The notes under the pieces were generated by a model. That model had not been told where the DNA came from. It did not search any database and saw nothing but the letters and a program-made list of their open reading frames with translations. The position numbers and the translations under genes are program-made. From a virus: DNA of 64,000 nt. Positions 29,822-34,637 of the stretch are shown here, in pieces. Location: IMG/VR virus record IMGVR_UViG_3300044981_000387, positions 32,001 to 96,000 of that record. One strand, 5' to 3'. The stretch's first letter is position 1, and every line of letters starts with the position of its first letter.

Positions 29822-29895
29822 TGGAGGGCCTTCCGGGAGTTAAACCCAGCTCTGCGAGTTTAGAGTTCGCGGCACAATCGCTATACCAAAAGCCC
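29822..29895 (-). tRNA. amber suppressor tRNA (anticodon CUA), copy 1; amino acid identity unknown (U73)
   Basis: GGGCTTT/AAGGCCC acceptor, GTAT/GTGC D-stem, GCGAA-CT CTA AA-CTCGC, CTGGG-TTTAACT-CCCGG, T-CCA, 74 nt. Confidence 0.85.
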
Positions 29896-29903
29896 CTTTA
29901 TCT

Positions 29904-30116
29904 TCAGTTCAAGTTGGTAAATTGTTTAATCGGAGGGTTTTTGACTTCATCCAATGTGGGCAATTCTTCTTTATTTAATTCTGCCTCAAACTCTTGTCTT
30001 TGACGATCGGCTCTCTTCTCAAACCAATCTTCCGCAAAACGCCATACAACACCCAAAACTGCACCCGCCAATACTACCAAACCCATTAGTTCTACTAACC
30101 ACATGACTTGCCTCAA
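29904..30116 (-). CDS. small single-pass membrane protein
   Basis: N-terminal hydrophobic helix followed by a charged tail. Confidence 0.65.
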   Translation of the reverse strand: MRQVMWLVELMGLVVLAGAVLGVVWRFAEDWFEKRADRQRQEFEAELNKEELPTLDEVKNPPIKQFTNLN

Positions 30117-31078
30117 CTTAATGCCATCATTCGATTGATGGACAACCTAGCACCATTCATCAATTCCTCTGACATTATTATCTGAGGATCCAAATCTCTT
30201 AAAGAGAGATATACCTTCTCCAAAGTATTCTTCTTCATGTAAGGGCACTCATTGCAAGCGCAGCTGGCTTCCGGAGGAGCTGGAATAAAAATTTTATCAG
30301 GGCAAGCTTTACGCATCTGATGTAGGATACCCGATTCTGTGGCCACAATAAACTCGGAAGCGGAACTGGATACCGCATATTTGAGTAGTCCAGTGGTGGA
30401 TGAAATATGATCTGCCATATTAAGAATGGCTTCCTCGCATTCCGGATGAGCAATAATGAGGGCTTGCGGATGTCGAGTTTTGAGAGCAATCAACTTTCTT
30501 TGACTGAAAGTCTCATGCACCACACAGGTGCCTTGCCACAAAACCATGGGAATGTCGGTCTTTTTGATAATATAGGCTCCCAGGTGCTTATCGGGAGCAA
30601 ACAGCAGTTGTGAGCCATTCTGGGCGGCATGTCTAACAATTTTTTCGGCATTGGAAGAGGTGCAAATATAATCGGATAAGGCCTTGACTTCCGCCGAACA
30701 GTTGATGTAGCTAATAACAATGGAATCGGGATATTGAGCTTTCCAATGGGCAAACTGATCGGCAGGACAACCGTCAGCTAAAGAACAGCCAGCCGTTAAG
30801 TCGGGAAGCACCACTATTTTATTGGGACTAAGAATCTTGGCGGTTTCAGCCATAAAATGGACACCGCAAAAACATATAGTGTCAGCGTTAGTAGCGGCAG
30901 CTTGTTGCGACAGTTGCAAAGAATCACCAATAAAGTCGGCTACATCTTGAATGTCGGAATCTTGATAATAATGGGCCAAGATAACGGCATTACGACTTTT
31001 CTTCAGCTTATCAATCTCTGCTTCCAAATCGAGAGAAGGATCGACATACGGCTGATTGAGAATCGGTAGATTATTCAT
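30113..31078 (-). CDS. nadA: quinolinate synthase
   Basis: VILAHYYQ, FCGVHFMAETAKILSP, AGCSLAD, YINCSA, CTSSNA, CVVH, AHPEC, CNECPYMK. Confidence 0.96.
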   Translation of the reverse strand: MNNLPILNQPYVDPSLDLEAEIDKLKKSRNAVILAHYYQDSDIQDVADFIGDSLQLSQQAAATNADTICFCGVHFMAETAKILSPNKIVVLPDLTAGCSLADGCPADQFAHWKAQYPDSIVISYINCSAEVKALSDYICTSSNAEKIVRHAAQNGSQLLFAPDKHLGAYIIKKTDIPMVLWQGTCVVHETFSQRKLIALKTRHPQALIIAHPECEEAILNMADHISSTTGLLKYAVSSSASEFIVATESGILHQMRKACPDKIFIPAPPEASCACNECPYMKKNTLEKVYLSLRDLDPQIIMSEELMNGARLSINRMMALS

Positions 31079-32241: not shown

Positions 32242-32314
32242 TGGCGCCCCTAGCGAATCCTGACATCGCATCAACCGTTTTAGAGACGGGGCTCTTCCTT
32301 TGAGCTATAGGAGC
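32242..32314 (-). tRNA. atypical amber tRNA (anticodon CUA), copy 2; G73, non-canonical T-loop
   Basis: GCTCCTA/TAGGGGC acceptor, GCTC-AAAGGAA-GAGC D-arm, CCGT-CT CTA AA-ACGG, GCGA(T)-GTCAGGA-(T)TCGC T-arm, G-CCA, 73 nt. Confidence 0.8.
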
Positions 32315-32323
32315 ATGATATTG

Positions 32324-32656
32324 TCATTTTAATGCTAGCGGCAAGTTGCTGCATAACTTTTTGCTTTCAATTCCGGGTGCCAGAGCAATGGCAGTCAATG
32401 AATCATTAAGATCGGGCTCTCGAAAGCCTTCGTTGGGAATATAGAGTTCAGCGGCTCGTCGCAATAACTCCGTCAATGCGGCTTCATTTTCTGCCGCTAA
32501 TATACAAATATATTCGGAATTATCCATCCAGTCGTTGGTAGCATGTTTATATTCCGTAGCAAATCTAAATGCCACATGGCAGGCTTGGGCTAATTGGGCG
32601 CCAGGTGGTAAATCTTTTCTTACAACAATGTATAATTTATCGTTCTACGAACACAT
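32324..32656 (-). CDS. PTH2-fold (peptidyl/aminoacyl-tRNA hydrolase-like) protein with in-frame TAG at codon 4 (readthrough predicted)
   Basis: ATG TGT TCG TAG AAC GAT AAA TTA TAC ATT GTT GTA AGA AAA GAT TTA CCA CCT GGC GCC CAA TTA GCC CAA GCC TGC CAT gives MCS*NDKLYIVVRKDLPPGAQLAQACH, the conserved PTH2 N-terminal motif missed by the ORF track; ATG lies 2 nt after the upstream TAA. Confidence 0.85.
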
Positions 32657-32658
32657 AT

Positions 32659-32826
32659 TTATTCTCTTTCGTCTTTGTTTAATATTTCGGAAAAATGTTG
32701 CTCCAACTCTGCTTTTAATTGTTGAGCCTCCAATTTTTCTTTCAGCTGTTTGTCAGTTAATTTTATCACTTTACAACAGCATCCAGAATCATCGTCCCAT
32801 TTATTATCGTTTTTGCCATACCACAT
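32659..32826 (-). CDS. small hypothetical protein (55 aa, not in ORF track)
   Basis: MWYGKNDNKWDDDSGCCCKVIKLTDKQLKEKLEAQQ...; TGATATATAA upstream; ends 2 nt before the PTH2-like ATG. Confidence 0.65.
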   Translation of the reverse strand: MWYGKNDNKWDDDSGCCCKVIKLTDKQLKEKLEAQQLKAELEQHFSEILNKDERE

Positions 32827-32855
32827 ACTGAATTATATATCAACTTATTAATACG

Positions 32856-33038
32856 TTAATTACAAAAATGCATACTGCCTACAATAGGTTTATTTACTTG
32901 CACCAATGTATGACAGTCATAACATACCTGATAGATCTTACTTCCTAAAACAATACTGTTGCCGTTAAATAAATCTTGTTGCAACTTATCAGGCAACGAT
33001 GAGATCCAAGAAGGACCATAAATAGTTTGATATTTCAT
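32856..33038 (-). CDS. small hypothetical protein
   Basis: 60-aa ORF starting just after the tmRNA 3' end. Confidence 0.6.
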   Translation of the reverse strand: MKYQTIYGPSWISSLPDKLQQDLFNGNSIVLGSKIYQVCYDCHTLVQVNKPIVGSMHFCN

Positions 33039-33046
33039 TTTTTATT

Positions 33047-33404
33047 TGGTGGAGTCGTCGCGGCACTGCCCCGCGAGTCCGAAATACTTCTTCAATAAAA
33101 CTCATTCACAGACCTAGCTAATGGACTTAGTCATCAGCACCAAAGTTAGATACTCGCTCTAACGGGTCATCTACTGTTATTTTCATTAGTGAGAATCGTA
33201 GCCCTTCTTACTAACTATCTTTAGTTGGGTTTGCGCTCTTTTGGTTACGAAAGATATCTACCATTAGAACGTGAAGTGCAATTAAGCGGCTTCAGCAAAT
33301 ACCATATCGTCGGCATCTAAACGTTAATTGCTTTTAGAGGGGCAATCATCCTCTGTCTGTATCATTTAATCGATTCTTTATCCCGTCGAATCTAAGTCGA
33401 CCCC
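33047..33404 (-). ncRNA. ssrA: tmRNA (SsrA), tag peptide (A)ADDMVFAEAA
   Basis: 5' GGGGTCGACTTAGATTCGACGGGA; 3' CGACTCCACCA with G3-U acceptor pair; tag ORF GCC GAC GAT ATG GTA TTT GCT GAA GCC GCT TAA at 33314-33282. Confidence 0.92.
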
Positions 33405-33415
33405 ATATTATGGAC

Positions 33416-33489
33416 TGGAGCTAATGATGAGAATCAAACTCATATGACTGCGATACGAATGCAGCGTAATATCACTATACGACATTAGC
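33416..33489 (-). tRNA. tRNA-Thr(CGT)
   Basis: GCTAATG/CATTAGC acceptor, CTGCA-TT CGT AT-CGCAG, ATGAG-TTTGATT-CTCAT, T-CCA. Confidence 0.8.
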
Positions 33490-33494
33490 TTATG

Positions 33495-33569
33495 TGGAGC
33501 CCAAGTCGAGAGTCAAACTCGATTTTCATCATTACCAATGATGAGTAATAGTCGTTATACTACATGGGC
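33495..33569 (-). tRNA. tRNA-Thr(GGT)
   Basis: GCCCATG/CTTGGGC acceptor, CATCA-TT GGT AA-TGATG, TCGAG-TTTGACT-CTCGA, T-CCA. Confidence 0.85.
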
Positions 33570-33573
33570 TTAT

Positions 33574-33648
33574 TGGAGCTGGTTGTGAGAATCGAACTCA
33601 CGTCTCTGATTTACAAGGCCAGGGTCCTACCATTGAAACGAAACCAGC
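33574..33648 (-). tRNA. tRNA-Thr(TGT)
   Basis: GCTGGTT/AACCAGC acceptor, AATGGTA D-loop, CT TGT AA loop, GTGAG-TTCGATT-CTCAC, T-CCA. Confidence 0.92.
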
Positions 33649-33848: not shown

Positions 33849-34637
33849 TCATAAACTCTCCTGACGAAAAATATCTGAACCGTGCTTAAAAATATTACTC
33901 AAAAAGCTTTGATCTTTAGTAAAAATAGGTGGCTCAGGATTGAGATACCATTTATATCGAGCAGACTCTTCCGATAATTTAGGAACTTTATAACAAGCGG
34001 TCCCTCGACGAAAAGAAACTGGATAATCATTGAAATTAATTTGACATTCTTGATGCAACAAATCAATCTTTTCATCCATACTTAAACCACTTAACATTTC
34101 CTTAATAGCATTCTTATCATGTTTCTTAATTAATTCATAAAGGCAAGCAAATTGAATGGAAGCGTGAAAATTATATTGTTGCTTATAAACCAAAGTATTG
34201 ATAGCTTCTCCAATAGTTGGCACAGCAAACACTTGAGAAGTAAAAATAGGATCATTGGTTAAATTAAGAGATAATTTGGTAGCACAATCATTAAAATGCA
34301 TAGTAGCAATCGCTGCCGTCACCGAAGATATCTTCTGAACACGATTATCATACCAAGGAACGGTATCGGGGTTCTGATCGTTACGCACCACCAACACAAT
34401 TTCGTCATTATACTGATAACCAAAAAGAGCTCCTTCCACTTCCGTACATAAACGCAACATAGTAGATAAAATACATTCCGCAAACTTAGGACAATACGGT
34501 TTATCTAATAATTGGGTTAATTTAGAAAAAGAACGACCATTAACTATTATAATGATAGGCAAACGAGCTAATAGCTTGTAATCAGAGGTAGCTTGGTAGC
34601 TATCTATTCGGTCTTTCAATTTAATATTATTCATCAA
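33849..34637 (-). CDS. Thg1-like tRNA(His) guanylyltransferase / 3'-5' polymerase family protein
   Basis: IIIVNGRSFSKLT (canonical RxDGxxF), GYQYNDEI, WYDNRVQKISS, FRRGT. Confidence 0.88.
   Translation of the reverse strand: MMNNIKLKDRIDSYQATSDYKLLARLPIIIIVNGRSFSKLTQLLDKPYCPKFAECILSTMLRLCTEVEGALFGYQYNDEIVLVVRNDQNPDTVPWYDNRVQKISSVTAAIATMHFNDCATKLSLNLTNDPIFTSQVFAVPTIGEAINTLVYKQQYNFHASIQFACLYELIKKHDKNAIKEMLSGLSMDEKIDLLHQECQINFNDYPVSFRRGTACYKVPKLSEESARYKWYLNPEPPIFTKDQSFLSNIFKHGSDIFRQESL

What the first reader, a model, noticed from the sequence alone, without database searches (positions are those of the whole stretch)
32242..32656. Amber-gated cassette: PTH2-fold gene with in-frame TAG at codon 4, followed 9 nt later by an atypical CUA tRNA
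Seen in sequence: the minus strand reads upstream-gene TAA, then AT, then ATG TGT TCG TAG AAC GAT AAA TTA TAC ATT GTT GTA AGA AAA GAT TTA..., i.e. MCS*NDKLYIVVRKDLPPGAQLAQACH. The conserved PTH2 N-terminal strand and helix lie after the TAG (32645-32647). No ATG, GTG or TTG occurs between the TAG and the GTG at 32575, which is already past that motif. The full protein therefore needs amber readthrough or an unusual start. A 73-nt tRNA-like RNA with a CUA anticodon and encoded CCA starts 9 nt after the gene's stop. Established: archaeal/eukaryotic PTH2 uses a GKxAAQ Lys and a DAG Asp, whereas this protein has GAQLAQ and EPD, so canonical hydrolase activity is doubtful. Inference: a self-contained module in which the protein is made only when the CUA tRNA is charged. 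It could be a feedback sensor (the protein deacylates or processes the suppressor) or a way to install a specific residue next to an N-terminal Cys. This is the best candidate here for an undescribed system.
Basis: partly seen in the sequence, partly recalled or inferred. Interest (0 to 1): 0.93.

Follow-up and report, generated by a model that had tools for sequence, protein, structure and literature searches.

The report
Suppressor-tRNA-gated phage PTH2-like gene
A giant soil phage that uses the normal genetic code has a UAG stop as codon 4 of a small tRNA-hydrolase-like gene, next to its own UAG-reading tRNAs; over a hundred distant phages share this layout, so the protein is probably made only when that tRNA overrides the stop.

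Summary
The minus strand reads ATG TGT TCG TAG (TAG at 32645-32647) and continues in frame into a PTH2-fold protein. A cloverleaf tRNA with anticodon CUA starts 9 nt after the gene's stop. A second CUA tRNA lies at 29822-29895.

This is not a mutation or an assembly error. Three independent soil metagenomes and one soil metatranscriptome carry the same TAG. Of 136 unique homologues from large phages, 119 have an in-frame stop 1-9 codons after a start codon and no start codon after it (112 TAG, 5 TAA, 2 TGA). A cognate suppressor tRNA lies within 3 kb in 53 of the 61 such loci that have full flanks. Four lineages also carry TAG inside the conserved domain.

Six phage genomes tested, two of them complete, use the standard code. 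In them this gene is the only one found that needs readthrough. Near-complete relatives also encode a canonical Pth2, so this divergent copy is specialised.

Best reading: translation is gated by the phage's own suppressor tRNA, and the product probably acts on a tRNA 3' end, giving feedback. The gate rests on comparative evidence only, and the enzymatic function is inferred.

The scan has reported this module before on other genomes. I found no published description.

The parts
32324..32656 (-). Divergent PTH2-fold gene: ATG, two sense codons, in-frame TAG, then 106 codons and TGA
   Evidence: Sequence. Pfam PF01981 39.6 bits. AlphaFold2 model with pLDDT 95.5. TM 0.81 to archaeal Pth2 3erj. 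NCBIfam Pth2 equivalog models score only 26 bits against a cut-off of 126.
32645..32647 (-). In-frame amber codon (codon 4), followed by A (AAC)
   Evidence: Unchanged in contigs of four other sequencing runs. The equivalent N-terminal stop is present in 119 of 136 unique homologues. The base after the stop is a purine in 117 of 119.
32654..32656 (-). ATG start codon of the gated ORF, 2 nt after the stop of the upstream 55-aa ORF
   Evidence: In homologues a start codon lies 1-9 codons before the stop.
32242..32314 (-). tRNA(CUA) 'A': 7-bp acceptor stem, G73, encoded CCA, atypical T-loop GUCAGGA; starts 9 nt after the gene's stop
   Evidence: Rfam tRNA 33.5 bits against 29. Cloverleaf minimum-free-energy fold. 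Not called by ARAGORN. The same odd T-loop, with a different but still pairing T-stem, occurs in the L174 tRNA; the nearest relative L172 is 81% identical.
29822..29895 (-). tRNA(CUA) 'B': U73, encoded CCA
   Evidence: ARAGORN calls it and labels it 'Pyl' only because of the anticodon. It was not listed by Rfam at E<1. A homologue lies 65 nt downstream of the PTH2-like gene in the closest relatives L002-L004. No PylS was found in this contig or in three relatives.
32659..32826 (-). Upstream 55-aa ORF of unknown function, probably in the same operon
   Evidence: A promoter-like site TTAACG-16-TATAAT lies at 32859..32832 just upstream; this is a consensus match only.
33047..33404 (-). Phage tmRNA (context: same strand, about 400 nt upstream of the cassette)
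   Evidence: Rfam tmRNA 89.3 bits. The same order, Thr tRNAs, tmRNA, PTH2-like gene, CUA tRNAs, is seen in the complete relative G003.

Best explanation
The gene at 32324-32656(-) encodes a specialised, divergent PTH2-fold protein. Its translation starts at the ATG (32656) and is blocked at codon 4 by UAG unless a phage-encoded amber suppressor tRNA decodes that codon in competition with host RF1. The candidate tRNAs are the CUA tRNA 9 nt downstream and/or the second one at 29822-29895. The stop therefore works as a translational gate: the protein is made only when the suppressor tRNA has been transcribed, processed, charged by a host synthetase and accepted by the ribosome. The phage otherwise uses the standard code, so this gene is a dedicated client of the suppressor, not one of many recoded genes. 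Comparative evidence shows that the gate is conserved, that it covaries with the tRNA anticodon, and that it is specific to this gene family. Two steps are inferred. First, the protein hydrolyses or binds the acylated 3' end of a tRNA. This rests on its fold and on its partner in relatives, an HD-domain protein that resembles the tRNA-binding C-terminal half of a CC-adding enzyme. Second, because its synthesis depends on the suppressor, it forms a feedback loop that tunes or responds to UAG suppression in the infected cell, most simply negative autoregulation comparable to RF2. The sign of the loop and the substrate are unknown.
For: Conservation: 119 of 136 unique homologues from IMG/VR, JGI metagenomes and MAG contigs have start, 0-8 further codons, stop, then 1-16 codons with no ATG/GTG/TTG before the conserved KLY-VITR strand. 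TAG accounts for 112 of these 119, although TAG ends only 8 of 168 genes in this contig and 42 of 626 in the complete relative G003.
Linkage: a cognate suppressor tRNA lies within 3 kb in 53 of 61 gated loci with full flanks, and 51 of the 53 are on the same strand. In G011 the only tRNA listed away from the tRNA-rich first 75 kb of the record is the CUA tRNA, a few kb from the gene. No protein-coding neighbour is as widely conserved.
Covariation: L017 has ATG GCT TAA with a UUA tRNA that overlaps the gene's end. L074 and L145 have an in-frame TGA with a UCA tRNA nearby.
TAG must be read as sense: TAGs lie inside the conserved domain in L026, L029, L043 and L059, and L059 has a normal ATG start.
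Not general recoding: coding density is the same under code 11 and under TAG-sense in G000, G002, G003, G006, G007 and G008. A homology screen finds no other gene whose in-frame stop is spanned by homologues.
Specialisation: G002, G003, G006, G010 and G011 also encode a canonical Pth2 without internal stops; the one copy read out (G006) has the GKxxAQ and DAG motifs.
The TAG is real: it is present in four further sequencing runs, and database proteins showing Q at this position are TAG=Q gene calls.
tRNA-centred function: PTH2 fold. In about 30 relatives an HD-like gene sits immediately upstream and has its own M-x(1-4)-TAG start; it is fused to the PTH2-like domain in L012 and L074. Its model matches CC-adding enzyme residues 253-448 with Z 15.5, rmsd 2.5 A over 156 residues, against about Z 10 for other HD proteins, and the sequence profile gives E 8e-5.
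Against: There is no experimental evidence of readthrough, of tRNA charging or of any enzyme activity. tRNA A has a non-canonical T-loop and is missed by ARAGORN; tRNA B was not listed by Rfam at E<1, so the function of either is unproven. The codon after the stop is ATT, ATA, ATC or GTN in 98 of 119 cases, which would also fit reinitiation at a near-cognate codon. A few relatives have ATG or GTG directly after the TAG (L168, L240, the mycobacteriophages). Four of the five TAA-type loci show no UUA tRNA, but three are on short contigs. The Pth2 Lys is absent and the Asp is replaced by Glu, so hydrolase activity is not assured. The partner tRNAs are very diverse, which argues against recognition of one specific tRNA body by a 12-kDa protein. 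This contig holds only about 28% of the genome and lacks the HD-like partner.
Confidence: 0.72

Rival explanations
1. Start-stop leader with termination-reinitiation. Ribosomes translate the 3-codon leader, terminate at TAG and reinitiate at the next codon without any suppressor. The adjacent tRNA would be linked for other reasons.
For: The codon after the stop is ATT in 63 of 119 cases and ATA, ATC or GTN in another 35. L168 has TAG followed by ATG; L240, Catera and ScoobyDoobyDoo have TAG followed by GTG, with a Shine-Dalgarno-like sequence spaced for that GTG. Some relatives encode IF3 nearby.
Against: Reinitiation does not explain why 94% of the stops are TAG in genomes where TAG is the rarest stop. 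It does not explain TAA paired with a UUA tRNA or TGA paired with a UCA tRNA. It does not explain TAGs in the middle of the domain in four lineages. In this window the next codons are AAC GAT AAA TTA, none of them near-cognate to AUG.
Confidence: 0.12
2. The gate is only a timer or safety lock for a late or toxic effector. The protein would be made late, once the suppressor accumulates, and would act on something unrelated to the suppressor tRNA, for example bulk aminoacyl- or peptidyl-tRNA, or repair of tRNA ends damaged by host toxins.
For: The suppressor tRNAs are too diverse for body-specific recognition. The fold is that of a general peptidyl-tRNA hydrolase. The HD-like partner could be a 3'-end phosphohydrolase. 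A tmRNA lies next door.
Against: Homologues with a canonical start still keep a CUA tRNA within 3 kb in 8 of 13 loci with full flanks, which suggests a link beyond regulation. Only this gene, and its HD-like partner, is ever gated in the genomes tested. The phages already carry a canonical Pth2 for bulk recycling.
Confidence: 0.2
3. The phage is a TAG-recoded (code 15) phage, and this TAG is one of many sense TAGs, the rest lying in the unassembled late genes.
For: The contig is about 28% of the genome. TAG is a rare terminator here (8 of 168). The complete relative G003 encodes RF2 as well as suppressors, as reported for TAG-recoded phages (bioRxiv 10.1101/2021.08.26.457843). Some gene callers translated homologues with TAG=Q.
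Against: The complete relatives G002 and G003, and G006, G007 and G008, show no gain in coding density under TAG-sense, use TAG as a terminator, and have fewer TAG-split ORF pairs than the TGA-sense control in every genome and than the TAA-sense control in all but G008. The ligase on this contig ends in TAG TAG.
Confidence: 0.03
4. A nonsense mutation, pseudogene or assembly error peculiar to this contig.
For: None beyond the bare presence of a stop codon.
Against: The same TAG occurs in four other runs. The feature is conserved in more than 100 diverged homologues with an intact, conserved domain downstream.
Confidence: 0.01

Closest known systems
Stop-codon recoding and 'code-change modules' of phages (suppressor tRNA, release factor and sometimes a synthetase; Borges et al., bioRxiv 10.1101/2021.08.26.457843, read)
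   Same: A phage-encoded suppressor tRNA lets in-frame stops be read, so that some proteins appear only once the tRNA is active. The complete relative G003 also encodes RF2. TAG terminators are depleted.
   Different: Here the genomes are standard code by every test. The only clients found are one small gene next to the tRNA, plus its HD-like partner in relatives. The stop sits 1-9 codons from the start, and the client is itself a homologue of a tRNA-acting enzyme. That paper does not mention a peptidyl-tRNA hydrolase (0 occurrences).
Autoregulatory recoding of release factor 2 (prfB, in-frame UGA at codon 26; textbook knowledge, from memory)
   Same: A translation-related gene carries an early in-frame stop, so its own synthesis reports on how that stop is being decoded.
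   Different: No frameshift is needed, because the downstream frame is the same. Readthrough depends on a trans-acting phage tRNA. Whether the product acts on UAG decoding at all is untested.
Archaeal and eukaryotic peptidyl-tRNA hydrolase Pth2 (PF01981; PDB 3erj, 2zv3, 1wn2, 1xty, 1q7s)
   Same: Same fold (TM 0.74-0.81). Pfam score above the gathering threshold. The Gln-x-x-His of helix 1 is conserved.
   Different: The Lys of GKxxAQ is missing, the Asp of DAG is Glu, and a 4-residue loop is deleted. The family has its own invariant set: W43, F78, E80, D82, T88. It scores far below the NCBIfam Pth2 equivalog cut-off (26 against 126 bits). It coexists with a canonical Pth2 in the same phage genomes.
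Programmed readthrough that makes a second protein form (Q-beta A1, retroviral gag-pol; from memory)
   Same: A stop codon is decoded as sense to give a functional product.
   Different: Those cases add a C-terminal extension at low frequency using host tRNAs. Here the stop lies ahead of the whole domain, so it acts as an on/off gate, and the virus supplies the tRNA.
Lambda bar minigenes and host Pth (two-codon ORFs whose peptidyl-tRNA drop-off is toxic when Pth is limiting; from memory, a lead only)
   Same: A 2-4-codon ORF ending in a stop is linked to peptidyl-tRNA hydrolase biology. Without suppression this leader is such a minigene.
   Different: Here the minigene is in frame with, and fused to, the hydrolase-like gene itself. 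Not tested here.

Membership tests
PTH2 (Pfam PF01981) fold family | Profile match above the curated threshold | tested here: met
   39.6 bits against a cut-off of 23, residues 3-94. A PDB profile search hits Pth2 chains, with 2zv3 at E 3.8e-10.
PTH2 (Pfam PF01981) fold family | Alpha/beta PTH2 fold | tested here: met
   AlphaFold2 model with pLDDT 95.5. Foldseek TM 0.81 to 3erj and 0.78 to 2zv3; the next unrelated folds have TM below 0.35.
Canonical Pth2 enzyme (NCBIfam equivalogs NF003314, TIGR00283) | Score above the equivalog cut-off | tested here: not met
   26.4 bits against 126, and 20.7 bits against 82.
Canonical Pth2 enzyme | Catalytic Lys (GKxxAQ) and Asp (DAGxT); the catalytic role of these residues is recalled from the Pth2 literature and was not re-read here | tested here: not met
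   In the HMM alignment to 2zv3 the Lys aligns with Ala, the Asp aligns with Glu80, and the following loop is deleted. The canonical paralogue in G006 has both motifs.
Canonical Pth2 enzyme | Hydrolysis of peptidyl-tRNA | not testable with these tools
   Needs an enzyme assay.
tRNA (Rfam RF00005), for 32242-32314 | Covariance-model score above the gathering score, and a cloverleaf fold | tested here: met
   33.5 bits against 29. The minimum-free-energy fold is a cloverleaf, but its z-score is only -0.5.
tRNA (Rfam RF00005), for 32242-32314 | Canonical T-loop (T54-psi55-C56 ... A58) | tested here: not met
   The loop is GUCAGGA and ARAGORN does not call the gene. The same loop recurs in the L174 tRNA with a different, still pairing T-stem, which suggests a conserved variant.
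Amber suppressor tRNA | Anticodon CUA in a 7-nt loop with U33 and a purine at position 37 | tested here: met
   The loop is CUCUAAA in both window tRNAs. It is CTCTAAA in 72 and TTCTAAA in 17 of the 105 loops read, out of 109 unique tRNAs.
Amber suppressor tRNA | Aminoacylation and decoding of UAG | not testable with these tools
   Needs acid-gel or tRNA-seq charging assays and a reporter.
Pyrrolysine system (ARAGORN's label 'tRNA-Pyl') | PylS synthetase present | tested here: not met
   TIGR02367 gives no match over the cut-off in G000, G002, G003 or G006. The label only reflects the anticodon.
Stop-codon-recoded (code 15) phage | Higher coding density, or repaired split genes, when TAG is read as sense | tested here: not met
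   Coding density is 0.907 under code 11 and 0.914 under TAG-sense for this contig. There is no gain in G002, G003, G006, G007 or G008. There is no excess of TAG-split ORFs.
RF2-type autogenous recoding control | Early in-frame stop in a translation-related gene | tested here: met
   Codon 4 here; 1-9 codons from the start in 119 homologues.
RF2-type autogenous recoding control | The product acts on decoding of that same stop, closing the loop | not testable with these tools
   Inference only.

The most novel reading that the evidence does not exclude
The suppressor tRNA and the amber-gated PTH2-like protein, joined in many phages by an amber-gated HD-domain partner related to the tRNA-binding half of CC-adding enzymes, form a portable, self-tuning circuit. 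The enzyme would deacylate or otherwise disable the suppressor tRNA's acylated 3' end. Its own UAG would then set a homeostatic level of stop-codon readthrough that the phage imposes on a standard-code host. This would be a natural analogue of RF2 autoregulation, built from a tRNA and a hydrolase, and it would explain 'orphan' suppressor tRNAs in standard-code phages.
Probability: 0.3. Interest if true: 0.88.

Novelty: new variant of a known kind. Interest (0 to 1): 0.8.

Why it matters
Many large phages that use the standard code carry suppressor tRNAs with no known purpose. This cassette gives those tRNAs a conserved in-genome client, the only one detected, and that client is itself related to enzymes that act on tRNA ends. 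If the gate works as inferred, it is a compact natural device that couples protein synthesis to the activity of a single tRNA. That bears on three questions: how phages manipulate termination in infected cells, how full stop-codon recoding could evolve from a one-gene beginning, and how to build self-regulating amber-suppression parts for synthetic biology. Relatives exist in cultured Mycobacterium phages (Myrna-like and Bxz1-like, with the homologue and a CUA tRNA side by side), so parts of the idea can be tested at the bench.

Tried and rejected
- ARAGORN alone misses tRNA A, and Rfam did not list tRNA B at E<1. Neither tool on its own is enough.
- A Gp23 capsid search in relatives, meant to look for in-frame stops, gave nothing usable. 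I used whole-genome coding-density tests instead.
The repeat with A2 found only 5 MAG contigs that look like mis-binned phage DNA.
- ORF-based neighbour clustering did not flag the HD-like partner. It surfaced only through the fusion proteins in L012 and L074.
- Candidate 'other clients' of the suppressor were all inspected. These were split ORFs and stops apparently spanned by homologues. All turned out to be 5'-UTR similarity or antisense-frame shadows.
- A readthrough fusion of the HD-like ORF to the PTH2-like ORF was considered and rejected, because the two are in different frames and the HD-like ORF has its own stop.
- An initiator-tRNA reading (UAG as a start codon) was rejected. tRNA A has a paired G1-C72 and lacks three G-C pairs in the anticodon stem, and a conserved ATG with a Shine-Dalgarno-like sequence precedes the TAG in homologues.
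- Hopping or frameshifting was rejected, because the domain is in the same frame and the flanking codons differ.
- Read laying showed no RNA-library contig over the tRNA or the 3' half of the gene. This says nothing either way.
- Eight literature searches found no description of a stop-gated PTH2-like gene.
- Complex prediction and the protein atlas were not used.

Full report
**What is in the window.**
The window is bases 32001-96000 of a 120,727-bp IMG/VR virus record. CheckV rates it about 28% complete, which implies a phage of roughly 430 kb. On the minus strand a 55-aa ORF ends in TAA. Two bases later comes ATG TGT TCG TAG AAC GAT AAA TTA TAC ATT GTT GTA AGA AAA GAT, with the ATG at 32656-32654 and the TAG at 32647-32645. 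The frame stays open to TGA at 32326-32324. The first canonical start codon after the TAG is the GTG at 32575.

The 106 residues after the TAG match Pfam PTH2 (39.6 bits, cut-off 23). With 34 homologues they fold at pLDDT 95.5. The model superposes on archaeal Pth2 structures with TM about 0.8.

Nine bases after the stop begins a 73-nt RNA at 32314-32242. Rfam scores it as a tRNA (33.5 bits against 29). It folds as a cloverleaf with anticodon loop CUCUAAA, G73 and an encoded CCA. ARAGORN misses it, probably because its T-loop is GUCAGGA. ARAGORN does find a second CUA tRNA at 29822-29895. A tmRNA and three tRNA-Thr genes lie just upstream on the same strand.

**The TAG is real.**
Contigs from three other soil metagenomes and one soil metatranscriptome cover 32494-32682 without any change at the TAG. 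The only variant there is a synonymous GTA>GTG at 32621. Database proteins that begin MCSQNDKLY are gene calls that translated TAG as Q.

**The stop is conserved.**
I collected homologous loci from IMG/VR, JGI metagenomes and GTDB contigs. For each I located the conserved first strand with a profile HMM and walked upstream. The 136 unique proteins fall into four classes:
- 112 have an N-terminal TAG.
- 5 have an N-terminal TAA.
- 2 have an N-terminal TGA.
- 17 have an ordinary start.

In the gated classes a start codon lies 1-9 codons before the stop, most often 2 or 3. There are 1-16 codons, and no ATG, GTG or TTG, between the stop and the conserved Leu of the KLY motif. The base after the stop is a purine in 117 of 119 cases. 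From memory, that is the context known to favour amber suppression in E. coli. TAG dominates even though it is the rarest terminator in these genomes: 8 of 168 genes in this contig and 42 of 626 in G003. On a tree of the family the TAG state is spread throughout. TAA arises several times and TGA once.

**The tRNA is the conserved partner.**
Among the 61 gated loci with at least 2.5 kb on both sides, ARAGORN finds a cognate suppressor tRNA within 3 kb in 53. Of these, 51 are on the same strand, usually downstream and sometimes 50-70 nt upstream. In G011, where none lies within 3 kb, the only tRNA listed away from the tRNA-rich first 75 kb of the record is a CUA tRNA a few kb from the gene. No protein-coding neighbour is shared by more than about a fifth of the loci in an ORF-based clustering.

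Stop and anticodon change together. L017 reads ATG GCT TAA and has a UUA tRNA that overlaps the end of the gene. L074 and L145 have an in-frame TGA and a UCA tRNA nearby. Four of the five TAA cases show no UUA tRNA; three of those four are on short contigs and one (L226) has full flanks.

The 109 unique suppressor tRNAs are heterogeneous: G1-C72/A73, U1-A72/G73 (Gln-like), G73, U73, and two type II tRNAs. The inserted residue is therefore unlikely to matter.

**TAG is read as sense in this gene, but the genomes are not recoded.**
Four lineages carry a TAG inside the conserved domain: L026, L029, L043 and L059. L059 has a normal ATG start and a CUA tRNA 57 nt downstream. I tested six genomes, including the complete G002 and G003 and the 91%-complete G006. 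None gains coding density under TAG-, TGA- or TAA-sense. All use TAG as a terminator. TAG-split ORF pairs are fewer than TGA-split pairs in every genome and fewer than TAA-split pairs in all but G008. A homology screen for in-frame stops spanned by homologues in other genomes returned only the PTH2-like gene; every other candidate was a UTR or antisense artefact. The ligase on this contig ends in TAG TAG.

**The protein is a specialised paralogue.**
The Pth2 Lys of GKxxAQ aligns with Ala, the Asp of DAG with Glu80, and a loop is deleted. The family has its own invariant residues, including W43, F78, E80, D82 and T88. It falls far below the NCBIfam Pth2 equivalog cut-offs. Five near-complete relatives (G002, G003, G006, G010, G011) also encode a canonical Pth2 elsewhere; none has internal stops, and the one copy read out (G006) has both canonical motifs. 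The family has 428 cluster representatives at E <= 1e-10 among 1.84 billion proteins.

**A second gated partner in relatives.**
In L012 and L074 the PTH2-like domain is fused to a C-terminal domain of about 200 aa with an HDCGKP motif. The same protein is a separate gene immediately upstream of the PTH2-like gene in about 30 unique loci, including this window's closest relatives (L002-L004) and G003. In 27 of 28 unfused cases it also begins M-x(1-4)-TAG, followed by six conserved codons and a Met.

Its model (pLDDT 92.7) matches residues 253-448 of the Aquifex CC-adding enzyme (3WFR and related entries) at Z 15.5, rmsd 2.5 A over 156 residues. Other HD proteins score about Z 10. The sequence profile gives E 8e-5. 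This points to tRNA binding or 3'-end chemistry. The partner is absent from the 120 kb held for this phage.

G003 also encodes RF2. None of the four genomes searched (G000, G002, G003, G006) has PylS.

**Interpretation.**
The comparative pattern is what one expects if full-length translation needs the phage's own suppressor tRNA. The main rival is termination followed by reinitiation at the next codon. It fits the frequent ATT or GTN after the stop and the few cases with ATG or GTG there. It cannot explain the choice of TAG, the anticodon covariation, the internal TAGs, or the AAC that follows the stop in this window.

What the protein does is inferred. Homologues with ordinary starts still keep the tRNA next door, and the phages already have a general Pth2. 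I therefore favour a role tied to the suppressor tRNA's acylated 3' end, with the stop closing a feedback loop. A simple timer or lock for a general tRNA-end hydrolase remains a serious alternative.

**Prior knowledge.**
Papers on phage recoding describe suppressor tRNAs, release factors and recoded late genes, but not this cassette. Earlier agents of this scan reported the same module on other genomes. Those are unchecked AI notes and I did not use them as evidence. The tests above were all run here.

Noticed in passing
L025:2436-3014, L002:2418-2984, L008:2409-2990 and about 25 more loci; fused in L012:3313-3906 and L074:3313-3918: An HD-domain protein (phrog_14850, motif HDCGKP) lies immediately upstream of, or is fused to, the PTH2-like gene. 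It has its own M-x(1-4)-TAG N-terminus in 27 of 28 unfused loci. Its best structural match is the C-terminal half of a CC-adding tRNA nucleotidyltransferase (Z 15.5). It is absent from this window's contig.
   Followed up: partly
G003:C1:99668-100105, G006:C1:170375-170833, G011:C1:370913-371281, G010:C1:376971-377330, G002:C1:19894-20280: A second, canonical Pth2 gene without in-frame stops coexists with the divergent suppressor-linked copy in five near-complete huge phages. The G006 copy, the only one read out, has GKxxAQ and DAG.
   Followed up: partly
G003:C1:406809-407903 (L127:6809-7900): The complete, syntenic relative encodes a full-length RF2 (TIGR00020 383 bits, over the cut-off) although its genome is standard code. 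G002, the TAA/UUA phage, has a 201-aa GGQ protein with a basic tail.
   Followed up: partly
window 33047-33404 (-) and 33419-33648 (-): A phage tmRNA (Rfam 89 bits) is preceded by three tandem tRNA genes. ARAGORN calls only one of them (Thr-GGU). The tmRNA has the deepest cover in the soil metatranscriptome run X4.
   Followed up: partly
window 32242-32314 (-) and L174:3807: The non-canonical T-loop GUCAGGA recurs in a second suppressor tRNA with a different, still pairing T-stem. It looks like a conserved elbow variant rather than decay.
   Followed up: partly
L017:3300-3386: The UUA suppressor tRNA overlaps the last three sense codons and the stop of the PTH2-like gene. Excising the tRNA would therefore leave an mRNA without a stop codon.
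   Followed up: no
G000:C1:115274-117979 (outside the 64-kb window): The NAD-dependent DNA ligase-like ORF ends in a tandem TAG TAG, directly followed in frame by a phosphoesterase-like gene. This may guard against readthrough by the phage's own suppressor.
   Followed up: no
L082 (Mycobacterium phage ScoobyDoobyDoo 29416-30026) and L083 (Catera 90753-91450): Cultured cluster C mycobacteriophages carry the divergent PTH2-like gene, annotated as peptidyl tRNA hydrolase, with a CUA tRNA 180-250 nt downstream. The sequence xTG TAG GTG lies at the annotated GTG start. In Catera, GenBank labels that tRNA Arg.
   Followed up: partly
window 30113-31078 (-) and 33849-34637 (-): A NadA-like ORF and a Thg1-like ORF flank the cassette. 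Homologous neighbours in L008 and L186 match Pfam NadA and Thg1. The window's own copies were not scanned.
   Followed up: no
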